A stretch of 61,436 nucleotides of DNA from a virus: UHGV virus genome UHGV-0213688, one strand, 5' to 3'. Positions 2,511 to 52,492 of this stretch are shown here, piece after piece. The stretch's first letter is position 1; each line of letters begins with the position of its first letter. A program made the position numbers and the translations under genes. The notes below the pieces were generated by a model. The model had not been told where the DNA came from. It saw only the letters and a program-made list of their open reading frames with translations, and searched no databases.

Positions 2511-3476
2511 ATGCCAGAGGGTATTTATATAAACTACAATGACGGCAGACCTGCAATGCAGATAACAGCAGGATTACGCGCCCCGTCTTTTTGCGCCAAC
2601 TTCAATCAACGCTGTCAATCCGATAAAACTCTAACCATCAATACACCTTTAACGCCGGGATCGCAGCTTATCGTTGTTATGACTAACCCCGTTGAAGTAT
2701 TAGAAGTATTTGATCAGACGCTAGTTATCCCTGATCCAATGTATGTAACGTCTGTAACTCGAAACGGTGACGGTGGGGTGACGTTGCGAGGCGCGGATGG
2801 ACTTAGCGCTTATAGTGGATTGCCGCAATGGGCAGGGGTAATTATGGAAGTGTTACCTGTAGGAACGCGAAACGAGGGTCTATTTGTAGCTAACTCCACG
2901 GACTTCACAGCAATATCCAACGCAGCCTTTCTCATGACTTGTCAGTATTCCCAGTACGTGTGGGTTAACGGCAGTATGCCATTGCCCGTGGGGGGTATTC
3001 CGTTTGCTCGCTGGAACGACCCTAACGTGTCAGTAGGTTTTGATGGTTCAAATATTATTGTGCGAAATGCAGCGTATGGCGGAATTGATGATGTATCCGC
3101 TTCGGTTGGCATGGAGTTGGTAATATTTAATAACACGCCCCCACAGCCTGGTGAGGGTATCACCATGACGAACAACGCCGGACAGGTAACGTTCTCCACT
3201 GTTAAGAAGCCGTTTGTATTCAACGGGACAGTGAACCTTAGCGCTGGTTGGCAGAATATTGGAAATAGCTTGATACAGCTTTCGTACACGGGTACGCTTA
3301 TTGAAAACAATAGCGGTTATAATCATATACGCATGAACGGGATCCGCATGGCGGATAATGTGGTAGGTGCTGCAAGAAACCGCGTGGTAGGTAACTACTC
3401 ACGTCAACAATTCCAGTTGCCTGGTCGCAACGTTGTCATCCCAACACCCCTTATAGTCATACCAAATATGTATTAA
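2511..3476 (+). CDS. hypothetical protein, divergently oriented inside tail module
   Basis: ORF 2475..3476; preferred ATG 2511 (MPEGIY) with GGAG 6 nt upstream; followed by bidirectional terminator. Confidence 0.55.
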   Translation: MPEGIYINYNDGRPAMQITAGLRAPSFCANFNQRCQSDKTLTINTPLTPGSQLIVVMTNPVEVLEVFDQTLVIPDPMYVTSVTRNGDGGVTLRGADGLSAYSGLPQWAGVIMEVLPVGTRNEGLFVANSTDFTAISNAAFLMTCQYSQYVWVNGSMPLPVGGIPFARWNDPNVSVGFDGSNIIVRNAAYGGIDDVSASVGMELVIFNNTPPQPGEGITMTNNAGQVTFSTVKKPFVFNGTVNLSAGWQNIGNSLIQLSYTGTLIENNSGYNHIRMNGIRMADNVVGAARNRVVGNYSRQQFQLPGRNVVIPTPLIVIPNMY

Positions 3477-3477
3477 T

Positions 3478-3500
3478 AAACGGGGCGCATGCCCCGTTTA
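3478..3500. terminator. bidirectional rho-independent terminator between convergent genes
   Basis: palindrome AAACGGGGC-GCAT-GCCCCGTTT flanked by A/T runs on both sides. Confidence 0.6.
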
Positions 3501-3509
3501 AACATTTAA

Positions 3510-31242: not shown

Positions 31243-31986
31243 ATGAGCGAAGAAACTATCACATCCGCACCATTAACATCTAAAACTGTGGTTAAAGATC
31301 TGTGTTTTGCTGCGTGGGTTGTGCAAGCTTGCTCGCAGTTGCGCGGTGCGCCAACCAAATCACAGGCGCTTGCTATGGTGGAGGATTACTTCAACGAAGA
31401 TGTGGAACAGCCTGTTAAAAAAGCTGTAAGACAAAAAGCGGGAAAGCTGGATGCAGAACGGGCGGCTTTCCTTGCATGGGTTAGCGATAAGCTGGGACAT
31501 GAACTGGATGCCAAAGAGCTTCGCAGCTATACGGGCAAATTCAATTACCACATGGGCAAGGGTAACGACCCATATGAAGAAGCATTTAAGGTAAAAGAAG
31601 ATAAGGGTAAGGCGGGGCGCAAGGAAAACGTCGAGCTTAAAGCATGGATAGAGCGCCAAGCCTTGCTCAAAGGGGATCCTCTGACAGATAAGGAAGCGGA
31701 TAAATTGACACATCGCTGGTACAGGATGCGCCGGAGCGGCGATGTTCGGGACTGGGATAATCGCGGTCGCTGGCCTACGTGTTCCCTGCACCATTACGAA
31801 ACCGCTACCGCTATCCGTGTCAAGCTTGGCGCTCATTGGGTAGACCTTGCACTATACAGGGATGCTGAACAGGCTAAAAATATTCTTCCGAACATTGATA
31901 ATTGGCTTATTAGCTTAAGACAGGGAAGGGAGCCGCAGGACGTTATGTTAGAAGTTAGTAACCATATTATCACAACTCCGCAATAA
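31243..31986 (+). CDS. hypothetical protein, first gene after iteron region
   Basis: 247 aa; AGGAGG RBS 5 nt upstream. Confidence 0.55.
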   Translation: MSEETITSAPLTSKTVVKDLCFAAWVVQACSQLRGAPTKSQALAMVEDYFNEDVEQPVKKAVRQKAGKLDAERAAFLAWVSDKLGHELDAKELRSYTGKFNYHMGKGNDPYEEAFKVKEDKGKAGRKENVELKAWIERQALLKGDPLTDKEADKLTHRWYRMRRSGDVRDWDNRGRWPTCSLHHYETATAIRVKLGAHWVDLALYRDAEQAKNILPNIDNWLISLRQGREPQDVMLEVSNHIITTPQ

Positions 31987-32051
31987 TGCAAAAATAGTTG
32001 CAAAGTAAGGCTTTACTGTGTATTGTGTGGACGGTTGTAACGGAGGGTATT

Positions 32052-32255
32052 ATGGATCACGAATCGGAATTTGATTTGAACTACATAACGGCAGCGGAAA
32101 TCGAAGACCGTTATGGCATATCTAAGTTTAAGATGTCGCGCATACGTGACAGCATCCCGGGCGCTATCAGAATTGCTAACCAGTACATCTACAAACGCTC
32201 CTTAGCAGTGCCCGTTCTGGAAAAGATGCAAGGCGATAAGCGTCGGAGGTCTTAA
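32052..32255 (+). CDS. small putative DNA-binding protein (HTH-like)
   Basis: ORF 31998..32255; preferred ATG 32052 with GGAGGG; ITAAEIEDRYGISKFKMSRIRDS resembles a helix-turn-helix. Confidence 0.4.
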   Translation: MDHESEFDLNYITAAEIEDRYGISKFKMSRIRDSIPGAIRIANQYIYKRSLAVPVLEKMQGDKRRRS

Positions 32256-32261
32256 TTAAAT

Positions 32262-34604
32262 ATGGAACTGTTTCCCGCTGAAATTAAAGCTTTCCCACAA
32301 TGGGCGGTCGCCGATGCGGATAAAAAGCCTCTTGTATGGGACAACGATATTGGACGTTTGATGGCGGCGGACGTTACCGATCCGGATATGCTTATGACGT
32401 TTGAAGCTGCCAAAGGTTGCGCCGCGCATTTCAACAAACCTTATATTGGCTTTGTGCTTACTGCACAAGACCCGTTCACCTGCATCGATCTGGATGTGAA
32501 GAACGCGACCAATGAACCTGATCCCAAGAAGCACACGACGCCGGAACAGTTGCGCCGCTTCGAACAGATCATGACTGCGTTCGATACTTACACCGAAGTA
32601 AGTCGCTCAGGTTTGGGTGTCCACCTGTGGTTAAGAGGTAACATCGGTAAAGGTCGCCGACGTGATGGTGTCGAGGTTTATAGTCAGGAGCGTTTTATTA
32701 TCTGCACGGGCAATCCTGTTTATAACAAACCAGTTGCAGAACGTGATCATTATCTTACTATGCTTGTGAATGAAATTGATCTTCAGCGCAAGACATATGA
32801 AATTGAACTGGTAGAAAAAGATCCGGTAGAAGACGATGCGACTATTCACCAGCGAGCACTTGAAGCGGACAACGGGGATAAGTATGCACGCCTATTCAAT
32901 GGCGAATGGGTTGAAATGGGATTCCCTTCCCAGTCTGAAGCAGACCTTGCCCTTATTTCTATGTATGCATTCTACACAGAAAGTAATGAGCAATGCCGTC
33001 GTCTGTTCCGTTACAGTGCACTGGGCAAACGTGAGAAGGCTAATAAGAACAATGTTCATATTGACCGTTGTTTGCGCATGTGCCGCGGTCGTATGGAGCG
33101 TGAGCGCATTGCCCAGGAAAACGTAGCGGCGCTGGCGCGGGATTACGCTGCTCGTATGCAAGCCGCACACAGTGCAATGCAGCAGGTAACGGAAATGCCT
33201 GTGATTGTCGAAACAACACAGGGGCAGACAGTAGTTGCGGAAAGTACATCCATTGATGCAACAGCTATTGACTGGCCACCGGGACTCGCTGGGGAGCTTG
33301 CGAAGTACATCTACAAAGCATCCGTCCGACCAGTAAAAGAAATCTCTATTGTGACTGCGCTCGGCTTTATGGCTGGGGTATGCGGGAAAGTATGGCAGAT
33401 TCCGCAATCCGGTCTTAATGGTTATTTTGTCTTAATTGCTCGTTCTGGTGTTGGTAAAGAGACGTTGAACAGTGGGCTGTCTAATATAGTTAGCCAGATT
33501 CAGGACCAGTTTCCGCAGATTCATAGCTTTGTATCTTTTGACAGATGCGCTTCTGGATCTGCACTGCGTAAATCTTTTGCAGACAAACAATCTTTTATCA
33601 ACTTGAACGGTGAGTTTGGTAAGATTATCAAAGCAATGGCAACGGCTCCAGCAGGATCGCCGATGCAAAGTTTCAAGAATGACCTTACCGATGTTTATCA
33701 AAAGTCCGGTCAGATGTCTATCGTTGGTGGTATGTCTTATTCTGATAAGGCTAATAATACTGAAGCTCAACAAGGTGTGGCATATAGCATCATGGGCGAA
33801 ACGACACCGGATACGTTCTTTGAAGCATTAACCCGTGAAATGATGGAGGACGGATTCTTATCCCGTTTCCATGTTGTACGCTATGAAGGTGATCGACCAC
33901 CTTTAAACAAAAATCAGCAGACTACAATGGATCAGCATTTGAAGGACATGGTGTGCCATCTTGTTAACCACACTTTAGTAACAATGGCAAAGCATCAGAG
34001 TATTGAAGTACAGTTTAGCCCGGATGCGGAAACATTATGCGATCAGTTTAACGATGAATGTGATCGCAATATTAACGCAACCAAAGACGAAGCGATCCGT
34101 CAGCCGTGGAACCGTGCTCACCTGAAGGTCTTGCGACTTTCTGCCTTGTTAGCTGTGGGTGAGAACTGGATCAATCCGGTGGTACAAACCTATCATGTGC
34201 AATGGGCTTTGGACTTCGTGCGTCATGGGCAGGATATTATTATGAAGGAATGGCATAGCGGAGGCATTGGGACTAATGATGAAGCTCGTATCCGTACTAT
34301 GTGTCAGGTCTGTGTGAATTATCTAACTAAAGACTGGGTGAAAGTTAAACGTGTAGATTTGCGCAAAGAAGGTATTATCACGCGGGGTGATATTACTACG
34401 CGTCTTGCAAGTAAGTCCGCGTTTAAAAACTATCATCACGGATTATCCGCTGCAATCGAGTCTACAATCAAGGAGATGGTTGCTATGGGTGCACTTGTTC
34501 CGGTAACACGGGAGGAGACTATTAAACTGGGATTTACTGGGGCAGCTTGGCGCATTACGCAAGATGTTGAAGGAATTATGGCAAACTTAGGTGAAGAGGA
34601 ATAA
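32262..34604 (+). CDS. DNA primase/helicase (PrimPol-type primase domain + P-loop helicase domain)
   Basis: 780 aa; N-terminal DLD and SRSGLGVHLW motifs; central phage/plasmid primase-like region; Walker-A-like ARSGVGKET. Confidence 0.7.
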   Translation: MELFPAEIKAFPQWAVADADKKPLVWDNDIGRLMAADVTDPDMLMTFEAAKGCAAHFNKPYIGFVLTAQDPFTCIDLDVKNATNEPDPKKHTTPEQLRRFEQIMTAFDTYTEVSRSGLGVHLWLRGNIGKGRRRDGVEVYSQERFIICTGNPVYNKPVAERDHYLTMLVNEIDLQRKTYEIELVEKDPVEDDATIHQRALEADNGDKYARLFNGEWVEMGFPSQSEADLALISMYAFYTESNEQCRRLFRYSALGKREKANKNNVHIDRCLRMCRGRMERERIAQENVAALARDYAARMQAAHSAMQQVTEMPVIVETTQGQTVVAESTSIDATAIDWPPGLAGELAKYIYKASVRPVKEISIVTALGFMAGVCGKVWQIPQSGLNGYFVLIARSGVGKETLNSGLSNIVSQIQDQFPQIHSFVSFDRCASGSALRKSFADKQSFINLNGEFGKIIKAMATAPAGSPMQSFKNDLTDVYQKSGQMSIVGGMSYSDKANNTEAQQGVAYSIMGETTPDTFFEALTREMMEDGFLSRFHVVRYEGDRPPLNKNQQTTMDQHLKDMVCHLVNHTLVTMAKHQSIEVQFSPDAETLCDQFNDECDRNINATKDEAIRQPWNRAHLKVLRLSALLAVGENWINPVVQTYHVQWALDFVRHGQDIIMKEWHSGGIGTNDEARIRTMCQVCVNYLTKDWVKVKRVDLRKEGIITRGDITTRLASKSAFKNYHHGLSAAIESTIKEMVAMGALVPVTREETIKLGFTGAAWRITQDVEGIMANLGEEE

Positions 34605-45641: not shown

Positions 45642-45729
45642 CAGATAAGGGGTTGCGTGTCACAAAATCCTTTGGTACATTTAACCCCGTTGGTAACAAA
45701 CGAACCCATAACAATTCGGAGTGAAGAGA

Positions 45730-46533
45730 ATGAGCAACATTGAAGACAAAAAAGCTGCTGCCGCAGCCGCTGCTGCCGCCGCTGCAAAATCTGCTAAACC
45801 TGCAAAGAAAGAAGCTACTGTGAATGATGCAGAAGCTAAGAAAGCCGCAGCCGCTGAAGCTGCACGCGTAGCAAAAGAGAAAAAAGAAGCAGAGAAAAAA
45901 GCTGCCGCTGAAAAGAAACAAGCTGAAATCCGCACTGAAGCGGAAAACAAATTCAATGCGATTGCTAACGCTGCTGAAATCCTGAAAAACTCTTTGGCTA
46001 CCGTCACCGACGAAAGCACTGTTGAACAGATCACGGAAGCGGAAACTCAGGGATCTGCAAACCTGAAGACCATTAAAGAAGCTCTGAAAGAGCTGAAAGC
46101 TGTCGTTAAGAAGTCTAAAGGTGAAGACCTGTCCGGTGCTGTAACTTCTGCTCAGGGCCTGGTGGATGGTCTGGAAGCTACTATTAAAGGCTTCAAAGAC
46201 AAGATCCGTGCTGCAAAACAGGCAGAAAAAGAAGCGGAAAAAGCGCGCGCTAAAGAGCTTCGTGAGAAAGAAAAAGAAGCTAACCGTATGCCGGAACAGA
46301 ACGGTGTTCGTCGTCCACAACCGGAAACTTCCTGCGGTCGTGCCTGGGCTCTGATGGACCAGATTAGCGCTACGCTGGGTCAGCCTGCTCCGATCTCTTA
46401 TGTTCTGAACCTGGCTGGTCGCCATGGTCTGAACGAAGATACCATTAAAACTCAGTATGCACGCTGGAAGAAATTTAATGGTGTGACTGGTCGCGTACCT
46501 GTACCCGTACCGGAAGCCCTGAACGGCTTGTAA
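45730..46533 (+). CDS. Ala/Lys/Glu-rich protein with poly-Ala run and conserved C-terminal module
   Basis: GGAG 9 nt upstream of ATG 45730 (ORF track begins at GTG 45721); 11 consecutive Ala codons; C-terminal module shared with 29400..30014. Confidence 0.55.
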   Translation: MSNIEDKKAAAAAAAAAAAKSAKPAKKEATVNDAEAKKAAAAEAARVAKEKKEAEKKAAAEKKQAEIRTEAENKFNAIANAAEILKNSLATVTDESTVEQITEAETQGSANLKTIKEALKELKAVVKKSKGEDLSGAVTSAQGLVDGLEATIKGFKDKIRAAKQAEKEAEKARAKELREKEKEANRMPEQNGVRRPQPETSCGRAWALMDQISATLGQPAPISYVLNLAGRHGLNEDTIKTQYARWKKFNGVTGRVPVPVPEALNGL

Positions 46534-46587: not shown

Positions 46588-46602
46588 ACTAGAGGATTTA
46601 AG

Positions 46603-47310
46603 ATGAATATTAATCAACAAGCTCCCGAGTCTCGTTCTAAAGAAAACGATATGTATTTAGACGTGCATTCGGTATTCTCTACCATTCAGGGTGAAGGTCC
46701 ATTCTGCGGTCAACCTGCGGTATTTGTGCGCCTTGCTGGATGTAACCTGCAATGCCCGGGCTGCGACACGGATTATACTGTTGGTCGTTCTCTTTACCAC
46801 ATTGTTGATATCATGCGTTTAATCGAAAGCCGTAAGCTGGAATCTGGCAATAGCACCTCACTTGTGGTTATCACTGGGGGCGAACCATTCCGCCAGCAAA
46901 TTAACCCGTTTATTGAACAACTGTTATCACGCGGGTATCTTGTGCAGATTGAAACGAATGGGTCTATGCCTTTACCTAAGAACTTTTCCCAGCTACCTGT
47001 CATTGTATGCAGTCCTAAGACTTCAAAAATTCATCCTACTGTGCTGTACCGAGCAAACGCATTTAAATATGTGCTTAAAGCGTGCTGTGTAAACGTGGAA
47101 GACGGTTTACCGCTTCAGGCATTAGATCATCAAGCTACGCCATTTATCGCTAGACCTCCGAAGGGGTTCAAGGGTAAGATATATTTACAGCCAATGGACG
47201 AGCAGGATGAAGATCTTAACCACAGTAACATCCAAGCGGTTGTCCAAAGCTGTATGAAACACGGGTACACGTTGCAGCTTCAGGTTCACAAATATATCGG
47301 GGTGGAATAA
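46603..47310 (+). CDS. queE: 7-carboxy-7-deazaguanine synthase (radical SAM)
   Basis: VFSTIQGEGPFCGQPAVFVRLAGCNLQCPGCDTDYT matches the QueE N-terminal cluster-binding signature; AGAGGA RBS. Confidence 0.8.
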   Translation: MNINQQAPESRSKENDMYLDVHSVFSTIQGEGPFCGQPAVFVRLAGCNLQCPGCDTDYTVGRSLYHIVDIMRLIESRKLESGNSTSLVVITGGEPFRQQINPFIEQLLSRGYLVQIETNGSMPLPKNFSQLPVIVCSPKTSKIHPTVLYRANAFKYVLKACCVNVEDGLPLQALDHQATPFIARPPKGFKGKIYLQPMDEQDEDLNHSNIQAVVQSCMKHGYTLQLQVHKYIGVE

Positions 47311-47312
47311 CT

Positions 47313-47573
47313 ATGAGCGAAAAATATATGTTTGAAAATCGTCCTATTGATGGTATGACCTGGAACAAACTCCAGGAAGCTGCTTGTCACGGTGCATTAG
47401 TTTGCACTAAAGAGCGCGATGTTGAAAAGGCCGGACCTGTTTATAAACTCCGCGACCCTTGTAATGAAGAATACTGCTTTGTGTTTAGCGATGAAGCTGA
47501 ACAGTTTAGTAATCCTTACCGCACCGCTGATGAAGCTGCGGAAATGAGTCGTAAATATGCGGATCAATTATGA
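47313..47573 (+). CDS. hypothetical protein inside deazaguanine module
   Basis: 86 aa; GGGGTGGAATAACT-ATG. Confidence 0.5.
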   Translation: MSEKYMFENRPIDGMTWNKLQEAACHGALVCTKERDVEKAGPVYKLRDPCNEEYCFVFSDEAEQFSNPYRTADEAAEMSRKYADQL

Positions 47574-47582
47574 GGTGGAATA

Positions 47583-47795
47583 ATGATCACTTTGGAAGAA
47601 GCGAAACAGCATCAGGAAATGATCACTGAGCTGGTAGAAAAACTTAATTCTGCAATTGCTCACGCTACTATGCAGGGTGTGCATGTTGAATTAGATATTA
47701 ATCACGTTAGTACAATTGGAGCACGCAATCATCCGATTGTGATGTCAAACGTAACAATCAACCCTTGTGATATTAAAGGTGTAGAAGATGAATGA
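47583..47795 (+). CDS. hypothetical small protein (possible paralogue of next gene)
   Basis: 70 aa; GAGGTGGAATA-ATG, same RBS context as upstream gene. Confidence 0.45.
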   Translation: MITLEEAKQHQEMITELVEKLNSAIAHATMQGVHVELDINHVSTIGARNHPIVMSNVTINPCDIKGVEDE

Positions 47796-47976
47796 AGAAA
47801 CTGTAATTCTTATGCAGAAAATTCAACGTTTACAGGACGAGTTGAATGACGCTATTTGCCGCGCTGCATCAAAGAAAATACATTCGGAGCTTGAAATACA
47901 CCAGCGCCGGGTAACATCTGAAGCGGTGGTGGAACAAGTAGTCATTAACCTCAATATTAGTCTTAAAGGTTTCTAA
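47788..47976 (+). CDS. hypothetical small protein
   Basis: 62 aa; overlaps upstream gene by 8 nt; AAAGGTG RBS. Confidence 0.45.
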   Translation: MNEETVILMQKIQRLQDELNDAICRAASKKIHSELEIHQRRVTSEAVVEQVVINLNISLKGF

Positions 47977-47977
47977 A

Positions 47978-48700
47978 ATGAACAAATTAGATAAACTGGT
48001 ATTCCCTGTAAAAAATCATAACTCCGCCGTTGTGGTCCTGTCTGGCGGTCAGGACAGCGTGACCTGTTTAGGTCTTGCACTTAATAACTATGATAAGGTT
48101 TACGCTATTGGTTTTGCATACGGTCAACGTCACACTGTGGAATTAGCTTGCGCTGAACAGATATGTAAAGAACACGATGTCCCATTTGTTGTCTTTGAAT
48201 TACCTGCTTTGAAACAGATTGGCAATAGCGCTTTAATTGGGAACGAAGGTGATGTTAACGAACATCACGAACAGCACAACAACCTTCCAGCAAGCTTTGT
48301 GCCAAACCGTAATGCTCTTTTCCTGACTACCGCGCACGCCTACGCGCAGAAAGTTGGTGCCCGATATGTGGTTACAGGCGTCTGTGAAACAGACTATAGC
48401 GGTTATCCGGATTGCCGCCAGCAGTTTGTAGACTTGCTTGAAGCTACGTTAAACGTTGGATATGAAACAGATATTCATTTCGTTACCCCGCTTATGCGTT
48501 TAAATAAAGCAGAAACGTTTGAGCTGGCGGATAAGGTTGGCTTCTTAACCACAGTAATTGAACAGTCCCATACTTGCTATAACGGTGTCCGTCGCACTCT
48601 GCATGACTGGGGCTATGGTTGCGGTGAATGCCCTGCGTGCAAACTGCGTGCTAAAGGGTACAGTGAATTTATGGATAACGCTTACAGCAAACACGTTTGA
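47978..48700 (+). CDS. queC: 7-cyano-7-deazaguanine (preQ0) synthase
   Basis: PP-loop VVLSGGQDS; C-terminal Zn-binding Cys cluster CYNG...CGECPACKLR; 240 aa with no amidotransferase fusion. Confidence 0.85.
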   Translation: MNKLDKLVFPVKNHNSAVVVLSGGQDSVTCLGLALNNYDKVYAIGFAYGQRHTVELACAEQICKEHDVPFVVFELPALKQIGNSALIGNEGDVNEHHEQHNNLPASFVPNRNALFLTTAHAYAQKVGARYVVTGVCETDYSGYPDCRQQFVDLLEATLNVGYETDIHFVTPLMRLNKAETFELADKVGFLTTVIEQSHTCYNGVRRTLHDWGYGCGECPACKLRAKGYSEFMDNAYSKHV

Positions 48701-48820
48701 TCTTACCGCGAAAACCGCACCGCTAGCGCATTGTTTAGGGTGCGGGAACCCAACTATACTACTAAACCTTTTAAACCCAACAACCAGCGAATAACGCTGT
48801 TAAAACTGGAGAACAAAAGT

Positions 48821-49300
48821 ATGAAATTTATCGTTGCTTATCTGGCTGCAATTACATTCGTAAACCTGGGCTTTTCCTACCTTCCAATGCTCAATACGCC
48901 TCTTGGCGTGGTCCCGATGATGGCTTTCTTTGTAGGTATTATCTTTGTGTTGCGTGACTACGCACAGCGTAACGCTGGTAAAGGCGTTATCCCTGCAATG
49001 ATTGTGGGTTGCATCCTTAGCTGGGTATTTGGGGATCCTGCTGTTGTAGTTGCATCCGTTGCATCCTTTGCTCTTAGCGAGTTTGCGGACTATGCGGTAT
49101 ACACGATTACTAAGAAGCCGTTTCATCAACGTGTATTTATTAGCTCTTTGGTAGCTGTACCGATTGACTCCATTGTGTTCTTAAGTATTATAGGTATTGT
49201 TAATCCGGGATCAATGGTAGCAATGAGCTTAAGTAAGTTCACAGCATCTGCTATTCTTTGGGTTGTTTACGAAGTTCATTCACGTACAGCGAGAGCGTAA
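48821..49300 (+). CDS. YhhQ/DUF165-like membrane protein (queuosine-precursor transporter family)
   Basis: ORF 48731..49300; preferred ATG 48821 after GGAG; about 159 aa, 4-5 hydrophobic helices; VLRDYAQRNAG and SEFADYAVY resemble YhhQ motifs; sits between queC and queD. Confidence 0.5.
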   Translation: MKFIVAYLAAITFVNLGFSYLPMLNTPLGVVPMMAFFVGIIFVLRDYAQRNAGKGVIPAMIVGCILSWVFGDPAVVVASVASFALSEFADYAVYTITKKPFHQRVFISSLVAVPIDSIVFLSIIGIVNPGSMVAMSLSKFTASAILWVVYEVHSRTARA

Positions 49301-49302
49301 AA

Positions 49303-49890
49303 ATGAAAGATAATTTGAATAAGATTTGGCACCAACACGACGGTAAAGGGATGCCTATTTTTCTTCGTAATGAGAAGTTTGAAGTTCGTTTGCGCAACGG
49401 CACACACGTTAAGAATTTATTAGATGGATGGGATTGGGCTATGGAAGGGCGTTCAGCTATGGATGAAAATAGCCCTTATAAAGTTCAAGATATTATAGCC
49501 TGGCGATATATCGTTGCGGATGATTACGTCAAACAAGCTAGCGAAAACACTCGCTCCGGATTGTACCATCAAGCTTCTGAAACAAGCATAAGTAATACAT
49601 TTAATGGTGCAGTTTTTACGAAATATGAACCATCTAAAATTCCCATGAATAAATATCAGAAAATTATTTATGGTAAAGATCAAAACGGCAATGTTGTAAA
49701 GTGCATCGTGGATGTGTATGATGTCTTGGAAGCTTGGAAGACAACTAACCCAGCTTTGCAGCATTTAATTAAAAAAGCGTTGCAGCCGGGCGAACGCGGT
49801 CATAAAAGTCTGGTAGAAGACTTGAAAGATATTATTGCATCCGCACAGCGTGCATTAGAAATTGAACAGTCTAAAGAGGTATTAAAATGA
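49303..49890 (+). CDS. hypothetical protein embedded in deazaguanine module
   Basis: ORF 49258..49890; preferred ATG 49303 directly after upstream stop; no motif recognised. Confidence 0.5.
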   Translation: MKDNLNKIWHQHDGKGMPIFLRNEKFEVRLRNGTHVKNLLDGWDWAMEGRSAMDENSPYKVQDIIAWRYIVADDYVKQASENTRSGLYHQASETSISNTFNGAVFTKYEPSKIPMNKYQKIIYGKDQNGNVVKCIVDVYDVLEAWKTTNPALQHLIKKALQPGERGHKSLVEDLKDIIASAQRALEIEQSKEVLK

Positions 49891-50423
49891 GCTATACAGT
49901 AATTCGTTCACATGAAATTTGCGCCGGACATCGTGTTGTAGGTCACGAAAGCAAATGTCGCCACCTCCACGGTCACAACTATAAGTTTCACTTTAAGGTT
50001 GCTCCGAAGCATGGATGCGGAAAAGTAGTGACACGAGGAAAGCTGATTGAGGACGGTCTGGACAGCGTTGGGCGCGTGATTGACTTTAGTGTGGTTAAAA
50101 CTACGCTCTGCCAGTGGCTAGAAGATAACTGGGATCATAAGTTTCTACATTGGGAAAAGGATATGTTGATCAACGGACTGCAATGTTGTATTGAAACGGA
50201 TACTCAATCTGAACGCGGTTGGCCTACTTTCGGTGAAGGGGATGAAGATCTTAAAGCTTTTAACGATTCACTGGTATCTTTGCCGTTCAACCCAACTGCG
50301 GAAAACCTAGCTGCATATATGGTTGAAGTGATTGGTCCGCTACTGCTTGACGAACATGGCGTTCAACTTGTAGAATGCACCATCGAAGAAACTTCGAAAT
50401 GTCACGTAAACTATAGCCTGTAA
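49887..50423 (+). CDS. queD: 6-carboxy-5,6,7,8-tetrahydropterin synthase
   Basis: CAGHRVVGHESKCRHLHGHNYKF matches the QueD Cys/His zinc and active-site signature; AAAGAGG RBS. Confidence 0.8.
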   Translation: MSYTVIRSHEICAGHRVVGHESKCRHLHGHNYKFHFKVAPKHGCGKVVTRGKLIEDGLDSVGRVIDFSVVKTTLCQWLEDNWDHKFLHWEKDMLINGLQCCIETDTQSERGWPTFGEGDEDLKAFNDSLVSLPFNPTAENLAAYMVEVIGPLLLDEHGVQLVECTIEETSKCHVNYSL

Positions 50424-50424
50424 T

Positions 50425-51063
50425 ATGACCACATTAACAAGGAAACTGCAAACCATGTCAAAATTTACTATTAATGACGAAAGTATTCAATTTGAAATTA
50501 CTCGCGCGGTGCGCGCTTTACTAACTCGAATTGAAAATTGCACTGAATTACGTCCAGGTTTGGAAGAGACTCCATATCGTGTCGCTAAAGCCTATGCTAC
50601 ATGGTTCGGCGGTTATAATGTGGATATTGCTGGTCTGTTTAAGACCTTTGAAGACGGGGCGGAAGGTTCAAATGAAATGGTCATCGTCCGTGATATTCCA
50701 GTTTATAGCCATTGTGAACACCATATAGCCCCTATTATCGGTCGCGCTGTTGTGGGGTATGTTCCTAACGGTCGCATTGTGGGGCTCAGTAAACTGTCTC
50801 GCGTTGTGGATGCTTTTAGTCGTCGACTGCAAGTTCAGGAACGTCTTACTAACCAGATTGCTGACGCTATCCAGGAACACCTGAATCCGAAAGCTGTATG
50901 TGTTTATATTGATGCCAAGCATATGTGCATGGAGTCGCGCGGTGTTAAGCAGGTATGCGGCAGCTCTACTATTACCAAAGCGTTCCGGGGCGCTACAGAA
51001 CTGGAGCATGGTAGCGATATTGGTAAAGAATGGCGCCGGGAGTTCCTCGAAGCTTGTAAATAA
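50425..51063 (+). CDS. folE: GTP cyclohydrolase I
   Basis: CEHHIAPIIG, GLSKLSRVVDAFSRRLQVQERLT and HMCMESRG motifs; start could instead be ATG 50455. Confidence 0.85.
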   Translation: MTTLTRKLQTMSKFTINDESIQFEITRAVRALLTRIENCTELRPGLEETPYRVAKAYATWFGGYNVDIAGLFKTFEDGAEGSNEMVIVRDIPVYSHCEHHIAPIIGRAVVGYVPNGRIVGLSKLSRVVDAFSRRLQVQERLTNQIADAIQEHLNPKAVCVYIDAKHMCMESRGVKQVCGSSTITKAFRGATELEHGSDIGKEWRREFLEACK

Positions 51064-51082
51064 TAGATAGCTTTACAGATCA

Positions 51083-51119
51083 AGCCCATATCGGTCATAA
51101 TACTGGTATGGGCTTTTTA
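51083..51119 (+). terminator. possible terminator (long loop)
   Basis: AGCCCATA - 16-nt loop - TATGGGCT followed by TTTTT. Confidence 0.4.
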
Positions 51120-51134
51120 GTCATTGGAGGAAAT

Positions 51135-51341
51135 ATGGTAAGACAATACTTTTTCAACGTTCGAGCTGTAGAAAAAGGTACTTTCAGAGTTCTGTTATGT
51201 ATGGACGGTATTGCTGAAAGCAGTAACGCAAAACAAATTCATGCGGATCTGCATGTTAGAGTTGAACAGATCTTAAGCGAGCAATGCTTTAAGAAAGAAA
51301 ATTATCTCATTGAAGTAGTCGCTTTAAACAACGTGGAGTAA
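51135..51341 (+). CDS. hypothetical small protein
   Basis: ORF 51108..51341; preferred ATG 51135 with GGAGG upstream. Confidence 0.45.
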   Translation: MVRQYFFNVRAVEKGTFRVLLCMDGIAESSNAKQIHADLHVRVEQILSEQCFKKENYLIEVVALNNVE

Positions 51342-51344
51342 GAA

Positions 51345-52265
51345 ATGAACGTTTTTATGGCAGCAGTTTACACAAACGGATATATGCCCGGGCAGCAGCG
51401 CTATGAAAAGCTGTCCGAGCATGAGAAAAATATCACGCGCAATCTGCCCCATATTTTGGAATCATACCACTACGTTGGACGTCAGAAGTATGTTGATCAA
51501 ATGCGTGCGGATGGGGCTAAAGTGTTTCTCGACTCCGGTGCATTCTCCGCGCACTCGTTAGGTGCTCACATTGATATTGTTGAATACTGCGAATACATCA
51601 AGCGCAACAAAGACATCCTTCGCGTAGAAGATGGTGCGGTGATGGCGTCAGTGCTCGATGGTATCGGTGATCCGTTGCAGACCTACCGTAACCAACTTGA
51701 AATGGAAGCACGCGGTGCTAAACCGTTACCTTGCTTTCACTTTGGGGAGGACTTCCGCTATCTTGAATACTACATGAAGAACTACGAATATATCACCATC
51801 GGGGGCATGGTAGGACGTTCCACAGACACGCTTAAAACTTGGCTGGACCGCATGTGGGACAAATACATTTGCGACGGTAGCGGACGTGCTAAGATTAAAC
51901 TTCATGCGTTTGGTATTACGTCCACAACCATTATGGAACGTTATCCGTGGTATAGCTGTGACTCTTCCTCCTGGATTCAAGCAGCAGCGTTTGGAAGTGT
52001 GGTTACTCCTCCGTGGGGCCCAATGCGCGTATCAGATAAGTCACCGGACCGCCATCATTTTGGTAAGCATGTTTCAACATTAACTGAAATTGAACAAGAC
52101 GCTGTCCTTAAATACCTTGAGCAAAACGGTTTCACTTACGAACGTTTATCAACAATCTATGAATCACGTGCTGCCTTCAACTTATGGGCGTATGGTGTAA
52201 TTGCTACAAACATTAACGCTACCCATGACGGCACATTCCGTGATCGTGTAATGGAGTTATTTTGA
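51345..52265 (+). CDS. dpdA: DpdA-like tRNA-guanine-transglycosylase homologue (7-deazaguanine DNA transglycosylase)
   Basis: TGT-like VFLDSGAFSAH motif and TIM-barrel-like pattern; no TGT zinc site; directly downstream of folE. Confidence 0.65.
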   Translation: MNVFMAAVYTNGYMPGQQRYEKLSEHEKNITRNLPHILESYHYVGRQKYVDQMRADGAKVFLDSGAFSAHSLGAHIDIVEYCEYIKRNKDILRVEDGAVMASVLDGIGDPLQTYRNQLEMEARGAKPLPCFHFGEDFRYLEYYMKNYEYITIGGMVGRSTDTLKTWLDRMWDKYICDGSGRAKIKLHAFGITSTTIMERYPWYSCDSSSWIQAAAFGSVVTPPWGPMRVSDKSPDRHHFGKHVSTLTEIEQDAVLKYLEQNGFTYERLSTIYESRAAFNLWAYGVIATNINATHDGTFRDRVMELF

Positions 52266-52492
52266 TGGCTAACTTAAGAAGACCAAAAGGCAAACGTAAA
52301 TATACTCACACAGGCGTAAGAATTAATTATTACGGTGAAAACAGAGTAGTATTTCTCCACAAGACACCTAAGCAGTGGCAGGATCCGTCAGGTACATGGT
52401 TTAATGCACAAGGAAAACAAATGGGGCTTTACGGATACCCTCCAACCTGCGAATTAGATTTAACCACAATTAGAGCAATCGAGGATCGCTAA
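52262..52492 (+). CDS. hypothetical small protein
   Basis: 76 aa; GGAG RBS; overlaps dpdA stop. Confidence 0.45.
   Translation: MMANLRRPKGKRKYTHTGVRINYYGENRVVFLHKTPKQWQDPSGTWFNAQGKQMGLYGYPPTCELDLTTIRAIEDR

What the first reader, a model, noticed from the sequence alone, without database searches (positions are those of the whole stretch)
48821..49890. YhhQ-like precursor transporter and an unassigned 195-aa gene inside the modification module
Between queC and queD lies a multi-helix membrane protein with YhhQ/DUF165-like motifs (LRD...R..G; SEF-D-Y). That family imports queuosine precursors, so the phage may salvage preQ0 or queuine bases as well as making them. Immediately downstream, 49303..49890 has no recognisable motif yet is translationally packed between the transporter and queD. 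It is a candidate for a new tailoring or accessory function in the pathway.
Basis: partly seen in the sequence, partly recalled or inferred. Interest (0 to 1): 0.6.

Follow-up and report, generated by a model that had tools for sequence, protein, structure and literature searches.

The report
Phage preQ0 importer plus accessory gene
The membrane protein is the already published short YhhQ-type importer of the DNA-modification precursor preQ0 in Seurat-like coliphages. The neighbouring 195-aa gene is a fast-evolving local version of a very common phage early/replication-module protein, so it is probably not a new enzyme of the modification pathway.

Summary
The window is a Seuratvirus (CAjan/Seurat-like E. 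coli siphophage), 92-94% identical to published genomes. Both ORFs exist exactly as described: 48821-49300 (159 aa) and 49303-49890 (195 aa), tightly packed between queC and queD.

ORF1 is a short, six-helix member of the VUT/COG1738 (YhhQ) family. It is 100% identical to proteins already annotated "preQ0 transporter YhhQ". The CAjan orthologue was deleted in 2020 with no effect on dPreQ0 levels. This part is correct but already known.

ORF2 has three parts:
- a lineage-specific N-terminal beta domain;
- a disordered, indel-rich linker;
- a ~75-aa C-terminal domain, 70-79% identical in thousands of phage proteins.

The C-terminal domain occurs in 719 phage records, mostly Jerseyvirus and Drexlerviridae, which lack DpdA. 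It usually sits in early or replication-recombination modules near SSB. It has no Pfam name. Its predicted fold (pLDDT 94) resembles DUF3310/SaV-like (T7 gp1.7 nucleotide-kinase domain), but no sequence method supports homology.

ORF2 is the most divergent gene of the cluster. Public reads show that the published CAjan "ΔyhhQ" mutant also lacks ORF2's N-terminal domain and is still fully modified. A pathway-tailoring role is therefore unlikely, and the true function remains unknown.

The parts
46603..47310 (+). queE (7-carboxy-7-deazaguanine synthase). Context: first gene of the dPreQ0 cluster.
   Evidence: NCBIfam QueE models, E 2e-27. Annotated QueE in WildeMaa and Seurat.
47978..48700 (+). 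queC (preQ0 synthase). Context: upstream neighbour.
   Evidence: Pfam QueC, E 7e-75.
48715..48745 (+). Intergenic hairpin: 7-bp stem CCGCACC/GGTGCGG with a 17-nt loop, lying between the queC stop and the transporter RBS. It is not a riboswitch by Rfam and has no T-tract.
   Evidence: Sequence read directly. The equivalent stretch is annotated as a terminator in SA126VB. No Rfam match even at E<=10. Not called by the terminator scan.
48821..49300 (+). Short VUT/COG1738 (YhhQ-like) membrane protein, 159 aa, six predicted TM segments. Putative preQ0 / 7-deazapurine base importer.
   Evidence: Pfam Vut_1 25.5 bits (cut-off 27.2), E 1.9e-5. TIGR00697 21.7 bits. hhalign against E. coli YhhQ: E 2.5e-5 over 105 columns with conserved D/R/G/D/S/D/F residues. 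Topology from hydropathy and charge. 100% identical to the annotated 'preQ0 transporter' of WildeMaa, VogelGryff and CSP1C.
49303..49533 (+). ORF2 N-terminal domain (aa 1-77). A small beta-rich domain confined to Seuratvirus-like phages, with motif W9..D13 G14.G.P18 ... W43.W45 ... W67 R68.
   Evidence: AF2 model: strands 26-30, 35-37 and 64-69, helix 72-81, pLDDT 57-78. Found only in ~60 Seuratvirus-type orthologues among 250 family members. 45-62% identical between relatives whose DpdA is 97-100% identical. Absent in Hafnia phage yong3.
49534..49650 (+). ORF2 disordered linker (aa 78-116), variable in length and rich in indels.
   Evidence: pLDDT below 50 for residues 78-112. 10-44% identity with indels between orthologues.
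49651..49890 (+). ORF2 C-terminal domain (aa 117-195, plus stop): a beta hairpin followed by three helices. It is a widespread, unnamed phage domain with a DUF3310/SaV-like fold. Invariant residues: K117, Y118, D137, Y139, D140, H154, K157, K158, G163, R165, H167, K168, D173, D176.
   Evidence: Conservation. AF2 domain model: pLDDT 94, pTM 0.75. 4025 representative clusters at E<=1e-3. PHROGs 2452, 35158, 13223, 18443 and 17613. Foldseek matches to DUF3310, SaV-like and 'nucleotide kinase' models.
49887..50423 (+). queD. Its start overlaps the ORF2 stop (ATGA).
   Evidence: Pfam PTPS, E 5e-22. Junction sequence.
50425..51063 (+). folE (GTP cyclohydrolase I).
   Evidence: Pfam GTP_cyclohydroI, E 2e-61.
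51345..52265 (+). dpdA (DNA guanine transglycosylase that inserts preQ0).
   Evidence: 99-100% identical to annotated Seuratvirus DpdA / 'queuine tRNA-ribosyltransferase'.

Best explanation
There are two unrelated genes here.

(1) 48821-49300 encodes a compact six-helix VUT/COG1738 permease, the short form typical of DpdA-encoding phages.
- It most likely imports free preQ0, and perhaps other 7-deazapurine bases, from the medium into the infected cell.
- This would top up the pool made de novo by the phage's FolE, QueD, QueE and QueC. DpdA draws on that pool when it swaps guanine for preQ0 in phage DNA.
- It is an auxiliary salvage route and is dispensable in rich medium.
- Shown: family relationship, topology, conserved polar residues inside TM4 and TM5, co-occurrence with dpdA, and dispensability.
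- Inferred: the substrate and the direction of transport.

(2) 49303-49890 is not a deazaguanine enzyme. It is the Seuratvirus version of a modular phage early/replication-module protein.
- It has a hypervariable, lineage-specific N-terminal part (beta domain plus disordered linker).
- This is attached to a strongly constrained ~75-aa C-terminal domain that also works as a stand-alone 76-110-aa protein in other phages.
- The C-domain has a DUF3310/SaV-like helical core. It carries a cluster of invariant Lys, Arg, His and Asp residues.
- My best guess is that this surface binds a phosphate-bearing ligand (a nucleotide or nucleic acid) or a universally conserved host protein during DNA replication or recombination. 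In this view the N-terminal part is a replaceable adaptor.
- The gene sits inside the que cluster because the cluster itself is embedded in the replication module (helicase ... clamp, DNA polymerase).
- Shown: architecture, distribution, context and evolutionary rates.
- Inferred: the ligand and the role.
For: Identity of the phage: 92-94% nucleotide identity to Seuratvirus genomes with the same gene order.

Transporter:
- Pfam Vut_1 E 1.9e-5.
- PF02592 is precomputed on the 99%-identical P0121 and most homologues. More distant hits are named 'queuosine precursor transporter'.
- The profile of 48 homologues against E. coli YhhQ gives E 2.5e-5 over 105 columns. D46/R50/G53/D90/S108/D116/F120 match D57/R61/G64/D126/S146/D154/F158.
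- Six hydrophobic segments obey the positive-inside rule.
- The short form occurs in 77 phage records whose genus profile mirrors that of DpdA: Escherichia 32 vs 41, Vibrio 19 vs 23, Rhizobium 15 vs 14. Four accessions appear in both lists, although the two genes lie 8-10 kb apart there.
- E. coli YhhQ is required for preQ0 salvage (PMC5372724).
- CAjan ΔyhhQ keeps wild-type dPreQ0 (PMC7544227).

ORF2:
- Three-part architecture.
- The C-domain is 70-79% identical in proteins of 76-342 aa. Their other regions are unrelated, and only 3 of 72 have any Pfam hit.
- It lies at the C-terminus in 156 of 168 cases.
- Of 719 phage records, at least 364 of the 367 Salmonella-phage and about 140 of the 192 Escherichia-phage records cannot have DpdA.
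- Genomic contexts: next to a DNA-repair exonuclease and an HNH endonuclease in Jerseyvirus; among early small genes in Rogunavirus; within 4 kb of SSB, SSAP, ERF, YqaJ or DnaB genes in 5 of 7 metagenomic members, and never near que genes.
- ORF2 is the most divergent gene of the cluster: 73/55/51% identity against 97-100% for DpdA. The change is concentrated in the N-domain and linker.
- yong3 has a 111-aa C-domain-only version at the same position.
- The iggy and R7M cluster regions lack the gene.
- Foldseek links the C-domain to DUF3310, SaV-like and 'nucleotide kinase' models: probability 0.98-1.0, TM 0.56-0.62, rmsd 1.7-2.4 A over 55-59 residues.
- The CAjan 'ΔyhhQ' contigs lack ORF2 codons 1-78. 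That mutant is reported as fully modified.
Against: Transporter:
- The score is just below Pfam's gathering cut-off (25.5 vs 27.2). It is far below the TIGR00697 equivalog cut-off (21.7 vs 50.95).
- Pairwise BLAST against E. coli YhhQ is not significant.
- No transport assay exists for any phage member.
- The COG1738 family is stated to be functionally heterogeneous (section title in PMC5372724).

ORF2:
- In every enterobacterial Queuovirinae lineage examined the C-domain gene lies inside the deazaguanine cluster and is translationally coupled to que genes. It does so at three different positions: Seuratvirus VUT|X|queD, EC151 queC|X|VUT, Nonagvirus queE|X|gat-queC. This could reflect a functional tie.
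- The DUF3310 link rests on structure prediction alone. Foldseek E-values are only about 0.1. hhalign, hmmsearch, Pfam and PHROG cross-hits gave nothing significant.
- The CAjan mutant retains the C-domain as a fusion, so the C-domain itself has never been knocked out.
Confidence: 0.6

Rival explanations
1. ORF2 is a genuine accessory of the deazaguanine system. It could be a DpdA partner or targeting factor, a regulator of the que operon, or a tailoring enzyme. In this reading the conserved C-domain is a generic DNA- or nucleotide-binding module and the variable N-terminus is adapted to each lineage's pathway.
For: The gene is retained inside the cluster at three different positions in Seuratvirus, EC151 and Nonagvirus. 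The N-termini are unrelated in the three lineages. It has a 2-nt gap from the transporter gene and an ATGA overlap with queD. Kot 2020 lists six cluster genes as unassigned.
Against: Most carriers of the domain have no DpdA. Around seven metagenomic members no que gene was found within 4 kb. The cluster regions of iggy and R7M lack it. The CAjan mutant lacking ORF2 aa 1-78 has wild-type dPreQ0 and restriction resistance. The papers read here report preQ0 as the CAjan modification and do not mention any other. The N-terminal part evolves too fast for a conserved enzyme.
Confidence: 0.12
2. The C-domain is a divergent T7 gp1.7-type nucleotide kinase. In Queuovirinae it would phosphorylate (d)GMP or dTMP released from host nucleic acids. 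That would feed DNA synthesis and the GTP needed for preQ0 synthesis.
For: Foldseek matches to 'nucleotide kinase' and DUF3310 models. T7 gp1.7 carries DUF3310 at residues 122-184, and the domain has been implicated in its kinase activity (PMC9339283). Both families sit in DNA-metabolism modules. The invariant K/R/H residues could bind phosphate.
Against: There is no sequence-level relationship. hmmsearch scores T7 gp1.7 no better than its shuffles. hhalign gives probability 1-2%. No Pfam DUF3310 hit was found in 40 members. Which part of gp1.7 carries the catalytic site has not been established, to my knowledge. Stand-alone 76-aa versions seem small for a kinase.
Confidence: 0.15
3. ORF2 is a host-takeover or counter-defence factor of the SaV type. 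The conserved C-domain would engage a conserved host target. The fast-evolving N-terminus and linker would reflect an arms race. Its place next to DNA-modification genes would be a case of anti-restriction functions clustering together.
For: A hypervariable N-terminal part joined to a constrained C-domain. Diverse, unannotated partner regions. Location among early genes. SaV-like fold hits. The DUF3310 proteins SaV and Waterfoul gp47 are toxic early proteins (PMC8306868 and PMC9339283).
Against: There is no experimental datum for any family member. PADLOC gave nothing. The variability may reflect relaxed constraint or recombination rather than an arms race. The SaV link is structural only.
Confidence: 0.2
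4. The short VUT protein does not carry preQ0. It would transport another purine or vitamin, or act as a small membrane protein with a different role such as superinfection exclusion.
For: It lies below the equivalog cut-off for queuosine-precursor transporters. The COG1738 family is described as heterogeneous. ΔyhhQ has no phenotype. The protein is about 60 aa shorter than YhhQ.
Against: The short form is found almost only in phage lineages that also carry DpdA. In Seuratvirus, EC151 and yong3 it lies inside the que cluster. The polar residues within the membrane are conserved with E. coli YhhQ.
Confidence: 0.15

Closest known systems
CAjan gp41 / BASEL 'preQ0 transporter YhhQ' (Seuratvirus short VUT protein)
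   Same: 98.7-100% identical in sequence. Same position between queC and the hypothetical gene.
   Different: Nothing of substance. This is the same protein in another isolate.
E. coli YhhQ (COG1738, Pfam PF02592 Vut_1, TIGR00697 queuosine precursor transporter)
   Same: Multi-pass inner-membrane protein. The alignment covers TM2-TM5 with identical D, R, G, D, S, D and F residues. Linked to 7-deazaguanine metabolism.
   Different: 159 aa against 221 aa. The N-terminus is shorter, there is a ~20-aa loop deletion, and the C-terminus is shorter. Identity is 23% over the aligned region. It scores below the equivalog and Pfam gathering cut-offs. Transport is untested. It would serve DNA rather than tRNA modification.
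DUF3310 / SaV-like domain (T7 gp1.7 nucleotide kinase C-terminal domain; lactococcal phage SaV)
   Same: A ~60-residue helical core of similar predicted fold: TM 0.56-0.62, rmsd about 2 A. Phage-specific. Usually C-terminal or stand-alone. Found in early or DNA-metabolism modules. Preceded by a [KH]-Y motif and followed by a ...DL... helix.
   Different: No significant sequence or profile similarity. The ORF2 domain has a beta hairpin before the helices, a shorter helix1-helix2 connection, and its own invariant NPALQH...PG.RGHK signature.
PHROG families 2452, 35158, 13223, 18443, 17613 and 23361 (unknown function; 17613 is labelled 'ATPase')
   Same: All share the C-terminal domain, at E 1e-13 to 1e-102. 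phrog_23361 is the full-length Seuratvirus family and phrog_18443 the Nonagvirus version.
   Different: These are clusters without a described function. They supply no mechanism.

Membership tests
VUT / COG1738 (Pfam PF02592 Vut_1) | Match to the family HMM at the curated gathering score | tested here: not met
   25.5 bits against a cut-off of 27.2. E 1.9e-5, covering profile positions 58-140 of 152. The miss is narrow. PF02592 is precomputed for the 99%-identical P0121 and most homologues and is listed as 'weak' on related contigs.
VUT / COG1738 (Pfam PF02592 Vut_1) | Profile-level homology to the characterised member, E. coli YhhQ, including conserved intramembrane polar residues | tested here: met
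   hhalign of a 48-sequence profile against YhhQ: E 2.5e-5, probability 75%, 105 columns. D46/R50/G53/D90/S108/D116/F120 equal D57/R61/G64/D126/S146/D154/F158.
VUT / COG1738 (Pfam PF02592 Vut_1) | Polytopic inner-membrane topology | tested here: met
   Six hydrophobic segments. K/R residues are confined to loops 0, 2 and 4 and the C-terminal tail. This is hydropathy only; no dedicated predictor or structure model was run.
Queuosine precursor transporter equivalog (NCBIfam TIGR00697) | Score at or above the equivalog cut-off | tested here: not met
   21.7 bits against 50.95. It should therefore be called a VUT-family protein that probably works like YhhQ, not a YhhQ equivalog.
Queuosine precursor transporter equivalog (NCBIfam TIGR00697) | preQ0/preQ1 uptake activity | not testable with these tools
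   Only E. coli YhhQ has been assayed (PMC5372724). The phage deletion mutant shows no phenotype.
DUF3310 / SaV-like (Pfam PF11753) | Match to the family HMM or profile | tested here: not met
   No hit for ORF2 at E<=10, and none for 40 stand-alone members. hhalign against T7 gp1.7 and against an 8-sequence DUF3310 alignment gives probability 1-2%. hmmsearch scores gp1.7 within its shuffles. The control works: T7 gp1.7 hits PF11753 at 4.5e-23.
DUF3310 / SaV-like (Pfam PF11753) | Same three-dimensional fold | tested here: inconclusive
   Foldseek against BFVD with the pLDDT-94 domain model. DUF3310 of phage P60: E 0.11, probability 1.0, TMq 0.59, rmsd 2.0 A over 59 columns. Two SaV-like and two 'nucleotide kinase' models: probability 0.98-1.0. 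These compare predicted with predicted structures. No solved structure exists.
DUF3310 / SaV-like (Pfam PF11753) | Nucleotide kinase activity (T7 gp1.7) | not testable with these tools
Phage 7-deazaguanine DNA-modification system (DpdA + preQ0 pathway) | The gene family co-occurs with dpdA or que genes across phages | tested here: not met
   For the ORF2 C-domain family: 719 records against 242 with DpdA, with largely non-overlapping host genera. No que gene lies near any of seven metagenomic members. For the short VUT family the feature is met.
Phage 7-deazaguanine DNA-modification system (DpdA + preQ0 pathway) | Required for modification | tested here: not met
   From the literature plus reads. 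The CAjan mutant lacking YhhQ aa 55-159 and ORF2-orthologue aa 1-78 has wild-type modification. The ORF2 C-domain has not been tested.

The most novel reading that the evidence does not exclude
The ORF2 C-terminal domain would define a large, unnamed phage protein family: about 4,000 clusters at 50% identity, with near-invariant K/Y/D/H/K/K/R/H/K residues. It would be a remote structural cousin of the T7 gp1.7 kinase domain with a biochemical activity of its own on nucleotides or DNA. Enterobacterial Queuovirinae would have captured it into the deazaguanine cluster, for example to recycle guanine nucleotides or the guanine released by DpdA, or to couple DpdA to replicating DNA. Each genus would have fitted it with a different N-terminal adaptor.
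Probability: 0.1. Interest if true: 0.6.

Novelty: already known. Interest (0 to 1): 0.22.

Why it matters
For the transporter, little is added. Phage-encoded preQ0 salvage is published, and the gene is dispensable in the laboratory.

For the 195-aa gene the result is mainly a correction.
- It should not be listed as a candidate deazaguanine-tailoring enzyme.
- Its conserved part belongs to one of the commoner uncharacterised domains of phage early and replication modules. That domain deserves a name and a biochemical test in its own right.

One practical by-product concerns the only published 'ΔyhhQ' Seuratvirus mutant. It is in fact an in-frame YhhQ(1-54)::gp40(79-189) fusion. This affects how its null phenotype should be read.

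Tried and rejected
preQ1 riboswitch upstream of the transporter
- The idea came from the hairpin at 48715-48745. Rfam found nothing in the whole window at gathering thresholds, and nothing in 48600-48900 at E<=10. Rejected.

Sequence homology of the C-domain to DUF3310 / T7 gp1.7
- Tested with BLASTP, hhalign profile against sequence and hmmsearch with 200 shuffled controls.
- Also tested with Pfam and PHROG scans of 40 members.
- Finally tested with hhalign against a DUF3310 alignment built from eight phages.
- All were negative. The only pointers are a shared weak hit to phrog_25460 (T7 gp1.7 at 1e-3, JenK1 gp35 at 8e-3) and an 11-column GHK..DL match.

MuB C-terminal domain / helix-turn-helix
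- 6 of 40 members hit PF09077 weakly, best E 0.004. 6 of 40 hit a 'transcriptional repressor' PHROG, best E 0.002.
- hhalign against Mu B gave probability 0.3%. Not supported, although a DNA-binding helix-turn-helix reading of helices 1-2 is not excluded.

Solved structures
- phmmer and hmmsearch against PDB sequences and Foldseek against the PDB gave nothing for ORF2. No structure exists for DUF3310 or YhhQ.

Searches that failed or could not be run
- A database search with the N-terminal 90 aa returned only two truncated variants and was uninformative. Local jackhmmer showed the N-domain only in Seuratvirus-type orthologues. Weak W-x-x-DG-x-G-x-P-like motifs appear in a few other family members.
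- PADLOC gave no hits.
- Pfam gave nothing on the N-terminal parts of the JenK1, EC151 and CAjan versions.
Full report
**What the window is**

The region 46600-52300 is 92-94% identical at the nucleotide level to Seuratvirus genomes (WildeMaa, KS_W4, Seurat, slur01, Aeromonas phage SD04 and others). The gene order is the same. These are Queuovirinae, the CAjan/Seurat group of E. coli siphophages, which replace part of their guanines by 2'-deoxy-preQ0 (PMC6884629, PMC7544227).

In the window the + strand carries, in order:
- a helicase, then two ORFs;
- queE, 46603-47310;
- three small ORFs;
- queC, 47978-48700;
- ORF1, 48821-49300;
- ORF2, 49303-49890;
- queD, 49887-50423;
- folE, 50425-51063;
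- one small ORF;
- dpdA, 51345-52265;
- the clamp and the DNA polymerase.

The deazaguanine cluster is therefore embedded in the replication module.

**Checking the observation**

- ORF1 starts at an ATG preceded by GGAG.
- ORF2 starts 2 nt after ORF1's TAA.
- ORF2's stop overlaps the queD start as ATGA, and the queD Shine-Dalgarno lies inside ORF2.
They contain residues invariant in 48 homologues.

**ORF1, the transporter**

Family membership:
- Pfam gives Vut_1 (PF02592, formerly DUF165) at E 1.9e-5. The score of 25.5 bits is just under the gathering score of 27.2.
- NCBIfam's queuosine-precursor-transporter equivalog gives 21.7 bits against a cut-off of 50.95.
- Pairwise BLAST against E. 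coli YhhQ is not significant.
- A profile of 48 homologues aligns to YhhQ with E 2.5e-5 over 105 columns.
- The family-invariant residues D46, R50, G53, D90, S108, D116 and F120 face identical residues in YhhQ.
- Most close homologues carry a precomputed PF02592 hit. More distant ones (187-193 aa) are named 'queuosine precursor transporter'.

Topology:
- Hydropathy shows six segments. Every K/R-rich loop is on the same side.
- The acidic residues E87, D90 and D116 lie inside TM4 and TM5. This is what one expects for a small solute carrier.

Distribution:
- The protein is a compact form (155-165 aa against 221 aa) that is characteristic of phages.
- It occurs in 77 phage records. The host-genus profile (Escherichia 32, Vibrio 19, Rhizobium 15) parallels that of DpdA (41, 23, 14).
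- Four accessions appear in both sampled lists. In those the two genes are 8-10 kb apart. This co-occurrence without adjacency supports a functional tie to deazaguanine modification.

None of this is new:
- The identical protein is annotated 'preQ0 transporter YhhQ' in BASEL phages and in CAjan.
- Hutinet 2019 included YhhQ in its phage survey.
- The EC151 paper discusses it.
- Kot 2020 deleted it in CAjan and found wild-type modification.

My conclusion is that ORF1 is a VUT-family permease. It most likely works like YhhQ, as an auxiliary importer of preQ0. It does not meet the equivalog threshold, and its substrate has never been measured.

**ORF2: anatomy**

AlphaFold2 with an 84-sequence alignment gives three parts:
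- a small beta-rich N-terminal domain (aa 1-77, pLDDT 57-78);
- a disordered stretch (aa 78-112, pLDDT below 50);
- a C-terminal domain (aa 117-193).

Modelled alone with 40 stand-alone homologues, the C-domain reaches pLDDT 94 and pTM 0.75. It is a beta hairpin followed by three helices.

The C-domain is extraordinarily conserved:
- It is 70-79% identical in proteins of 76 to 342 aa.
- There are 4025 representative clusters at E<=1e-3 in the 1.84-billion-protein library, many of them stand-alone.
- Invariant residues are K117, Y118, D137, Y139, D140, H154, K157, K158, G163, R165, H167, K168, D173 and D176.
- It is C-terminal in 156 of 168 proteins.
- The regions attached to it are almost never recognisable: 3 of 72 have any Pfam hit.
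- It matches six PHROGs of unknown function and no Pfam, NCBIfam or PADLOC model.

**ORF2: distribution and context**

tblastn finds the domain in 719 phage records: 367 from Salmonella phages (Jerseyvirus, as a 76-aa protein), 192 from Escherichia phages (Rogunavirus and other Drexlerviridae, Seuratvirus, Nonagvirus), and others from Klebsiella, Vibrio, Aeromonas, Acinetobacter and more.

DpdA homologues occur in only 242 records, 3 of them Salmonella phages. The great majority of carriers therefore have no deazaguanine system.

Contexts examined:
- In Jerseyvirus the gene follows an SbcD-like exonuclease and an HNH endonuclease.
- In Rogue1 it is among early small genes.
- I looked at seven members from metagenomic contigs. 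Two of them, P0107 and P0109, sit in near-identical contexts. None is within 4 kb of a que gene.
- Four of the seven are within 4 kb of SSB, together with Sak, ERF/YqaJ or MazG. One is downstream of DnaB and NinG.

The family is thus a regular component of early and replication-recombination modules.

**ORF2 within Queuovirinae**

- Divergent full-length orthologues (48-55% identical) keep the position VUT|X|queD.
- Hafnia phage yong3 has a 111-aa version there that is essentially the C-domain alone.
- EC151 has a 250-aa protein with the same C-domain between queC and the transporter.
- Nonagvirus JenK1 has a 253-aa one between queE and gat-queC.
- The three N-terminal regions are mutually unrelated and have no Pfam hit.
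- The cluster regions of Pseudomonas phage iggy and Alteromonas phage R7M contain no copy.
- R7M does have a family member, listed in BFVD as a 204-aa 'phosphodiesterase'. No such CDS is annotated in its cluster region.

Gene by gene, ORF2 is the most divergent member of the cluster:
- ORF2 is 73, 55 and 51% identical to three relatives whose DpdA is 100, 99 and 97% identical and whose transporter is 100, 99 and 80% identical.
- The differences are concentrated in the N-domain (45-62%) and the linker (10-44%, with indels).
- The C-domain stays at 76-97%.

**A published mutant bears on ORF2**

- Kot 2020, Table 1, gives the CAjan 'ΔyhhQ' genome as 59,120 bp. That is 550 bp shorter than wild type, with the deletion at position 31,850.
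- In the RefSeq record yhhQ is 32,084-32,563 and the ORF2 orthologue gp40 is 31,513-32,082, both on the minus strand.
- One of my database hits, P0061, is a 166-aa protein made of YhhQ residues 1-54 fused in frame to gp40 residues about 79-189.
- It is encoded on contigs from four consecutive runs, SRR14312197-SRR14312200.
- The longest contig is 100% identical to CAjan on both sides of a 550-bp gap between 31,856 and 32,401.
- The mutant therefore lacks TM3-TM6 of the transporter and the whole N-domain of ORF2. It keeps the linker and C-domain, tethered to two YhhQ helices.
- Its reported phenotype is wild-type dPreQ0 and restriction resistance. This shows that the transporter and ORF2's N-domain are dispensable for modification. 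It says nothing about the C-domain.
- That the runs come from that study is my inference from the exact match.

**What the C-domain resembles**

Structure:
- Foldseek against BFVD with the domain model first returns 28 family members.
- It then returns a DUF3310 protein of Synechococcus phage P60 (E 0.11, probability 1.0, TMq 0.59, rmsd 2.0 A over 59 columns), two 'SaV-like' proteins and two 'nucleotide kinase' entries (probability 0.98-1.0).
- The full-length model had already hit a Klebsiella-phage gp1.7-type 'nucleotide kinase' at E 2e-3.
- DUF3310 is the C-terminal domain of T7 gp1.7. It is also the conserved core of lactococcal SaV, a toxic early protein that triggers AbiV (PMC8306868; PMC9339283).

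Sequence:
- Every sequence-based test was negative.
- I therefore describe the C-domain as having a DUF3310/SaV-like fold, not as a DUF3310 member.
- Weak hits to MuB_C and to a repressor PHROG were not confirmed.
- No solved structure resembles the domain.

**Mechanism: how far the evidence goes**

- For ORF1, the chain 'VUT permease, preQ0 import, larger preQ0 pool for DpdA' is well supported by analogy and co-occurrence. It remains untested.
- For ORF2, the evidence shows what it is not. It is neither a pathway-specific enzyme nor required for modification, at least through its N-domain.
- The evidence also shows what kind of protein it is: a modular early/replication-module protein with a constrained C-terminal domain.
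- That domain's cluster of invariant basic, histidine and acidic residues suggests binding of a nucleotide, a nucleic acid or a universally conserved host protein.
- I rank this generic reading first. The specific versions follow: gp1.7-like kinase (0.15), SaV-like host-takeover or counter-defence factor (0.2), and a true deazaguanine accessory (0.12).
- The persistent placement of the gene inside the cluster in three enterobacterial Queuovirinae lineages is the one observation that keeps the last option alive.

**Verdict**

The transporter interpretation is right but already published. The 'new tailoring function' idea for ORF2 is not supported. The finding is largely ordinary. The residual interest lies in the unnamed, very widespread C-terminal domain and in the re-reading of the published ΔyhhQ mutant.

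Noticed in passing
L034 (SRR14312199 contig), locus coordinates 3001-3501; CAjan NC_028776 31,856-32,401: The published CAjan 'ΔyhhQ' mutant (550-bp deletion at 31,850, Kot 2020 Table 1) appears in public reads as an in-frame fusion of YhhQ aa 1-54 to gp40 aa ~79-189. It also removes the N-terminal domain of the ORF2 orthologue. The paper does not mention this.
   Followed up: yes
window 48715-48745: Conserved hairpin (7-bp stem, 17-nt loop) in the 120-nt queC-transporter spacer. A related phage annotates it as a terminator, but it has no T-tract. No preQ1 or other riboswitch was detected, although COG1738 genes in bacteria are often riboswitch-controlled (own knowledge).
   Followed up: partly
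window 49303-50423 compared with L003, L011, L013: ORF2 and queD form a local divergence hot spot. queD is only 74-75% identical to three relatives whose queE, transporter and dpdA are 78-100% identical. This suggests mosaic replacement of this segment.
   Followed up: partly
L021 (CAjan) 2694-3017; L013 8178-8711: Gene content around the cluster varies. CAjan has an extra 107-aa ORF (gp39, phrog_24659) between the ORF2 orthologue and queD that this window lacks. One metagenomic relative has an HNH_3 endonuclease inserted before the clamp gene.
   Followed up: no
window 47313-47976: Three small ORFs (86, 70 and 62 aa) lie between queE and queC. The 70-aa one is labelled 'radical SAM domain-containing protein' in RefSeq and in phrog_26258. 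It has no Pfam hit and is far too short, so the label is probably an annotation artefact.
   Followed up: partly
window 51345-52265: DpdA gets no Pfam hit and only 16.9 bits (cut-off 200) on NCBIfam's DpdA model. The phage DpdA1 subfamily is poorly covered by curated HMMs.
   Followed up: no
L022 1144-3923: In one unrelated phage contig the C-domain gene, here with the domain at the N-terminus, is followed by a PAPS-reductase/DUF3440 gene and a ParB_N gene. That pair looks like another DNA-modification or nuclease module. SSB lies just upstream.
   Followed up: no
P0049, P0371, P0045 (Seuratvirus-like contigs): Assemblies contain truncated or frameshifted versions of ORF2: a 156-aa form lacking the last helix, a 59-aa N-terminal fragment, and a 177-aa form with an altered N-terminus. 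These may be natural pseudogenisation or assembly errors.
   Followed up: no
BFVD A0A5J6T4Q0 (Aeromonas phage vB_AhyS-A18P4, 468 aa) and A0A6M3YTD0 (Alteromonas phage R7M, 204 aa): The C-domain also occurs fused to a protein annotated as DNA ligase, and in one annotated as phosphodiesterase. Both fit a DNA or nucleotide-metabolism setting.
   Followed up: no
window 45721-46533: A 270-aa ORF upstream of queE has an Ala/Lys/Glu-rich, low-complexity N-terminal half. In relatives it is annotated 'transcriptional activator FtrA domain-containing protein'. It is conserved (phrog_11298) across Seuratvirus, Nonagvirus, EC151 and iggy, just upstream of the cluster.
   Followed up: no
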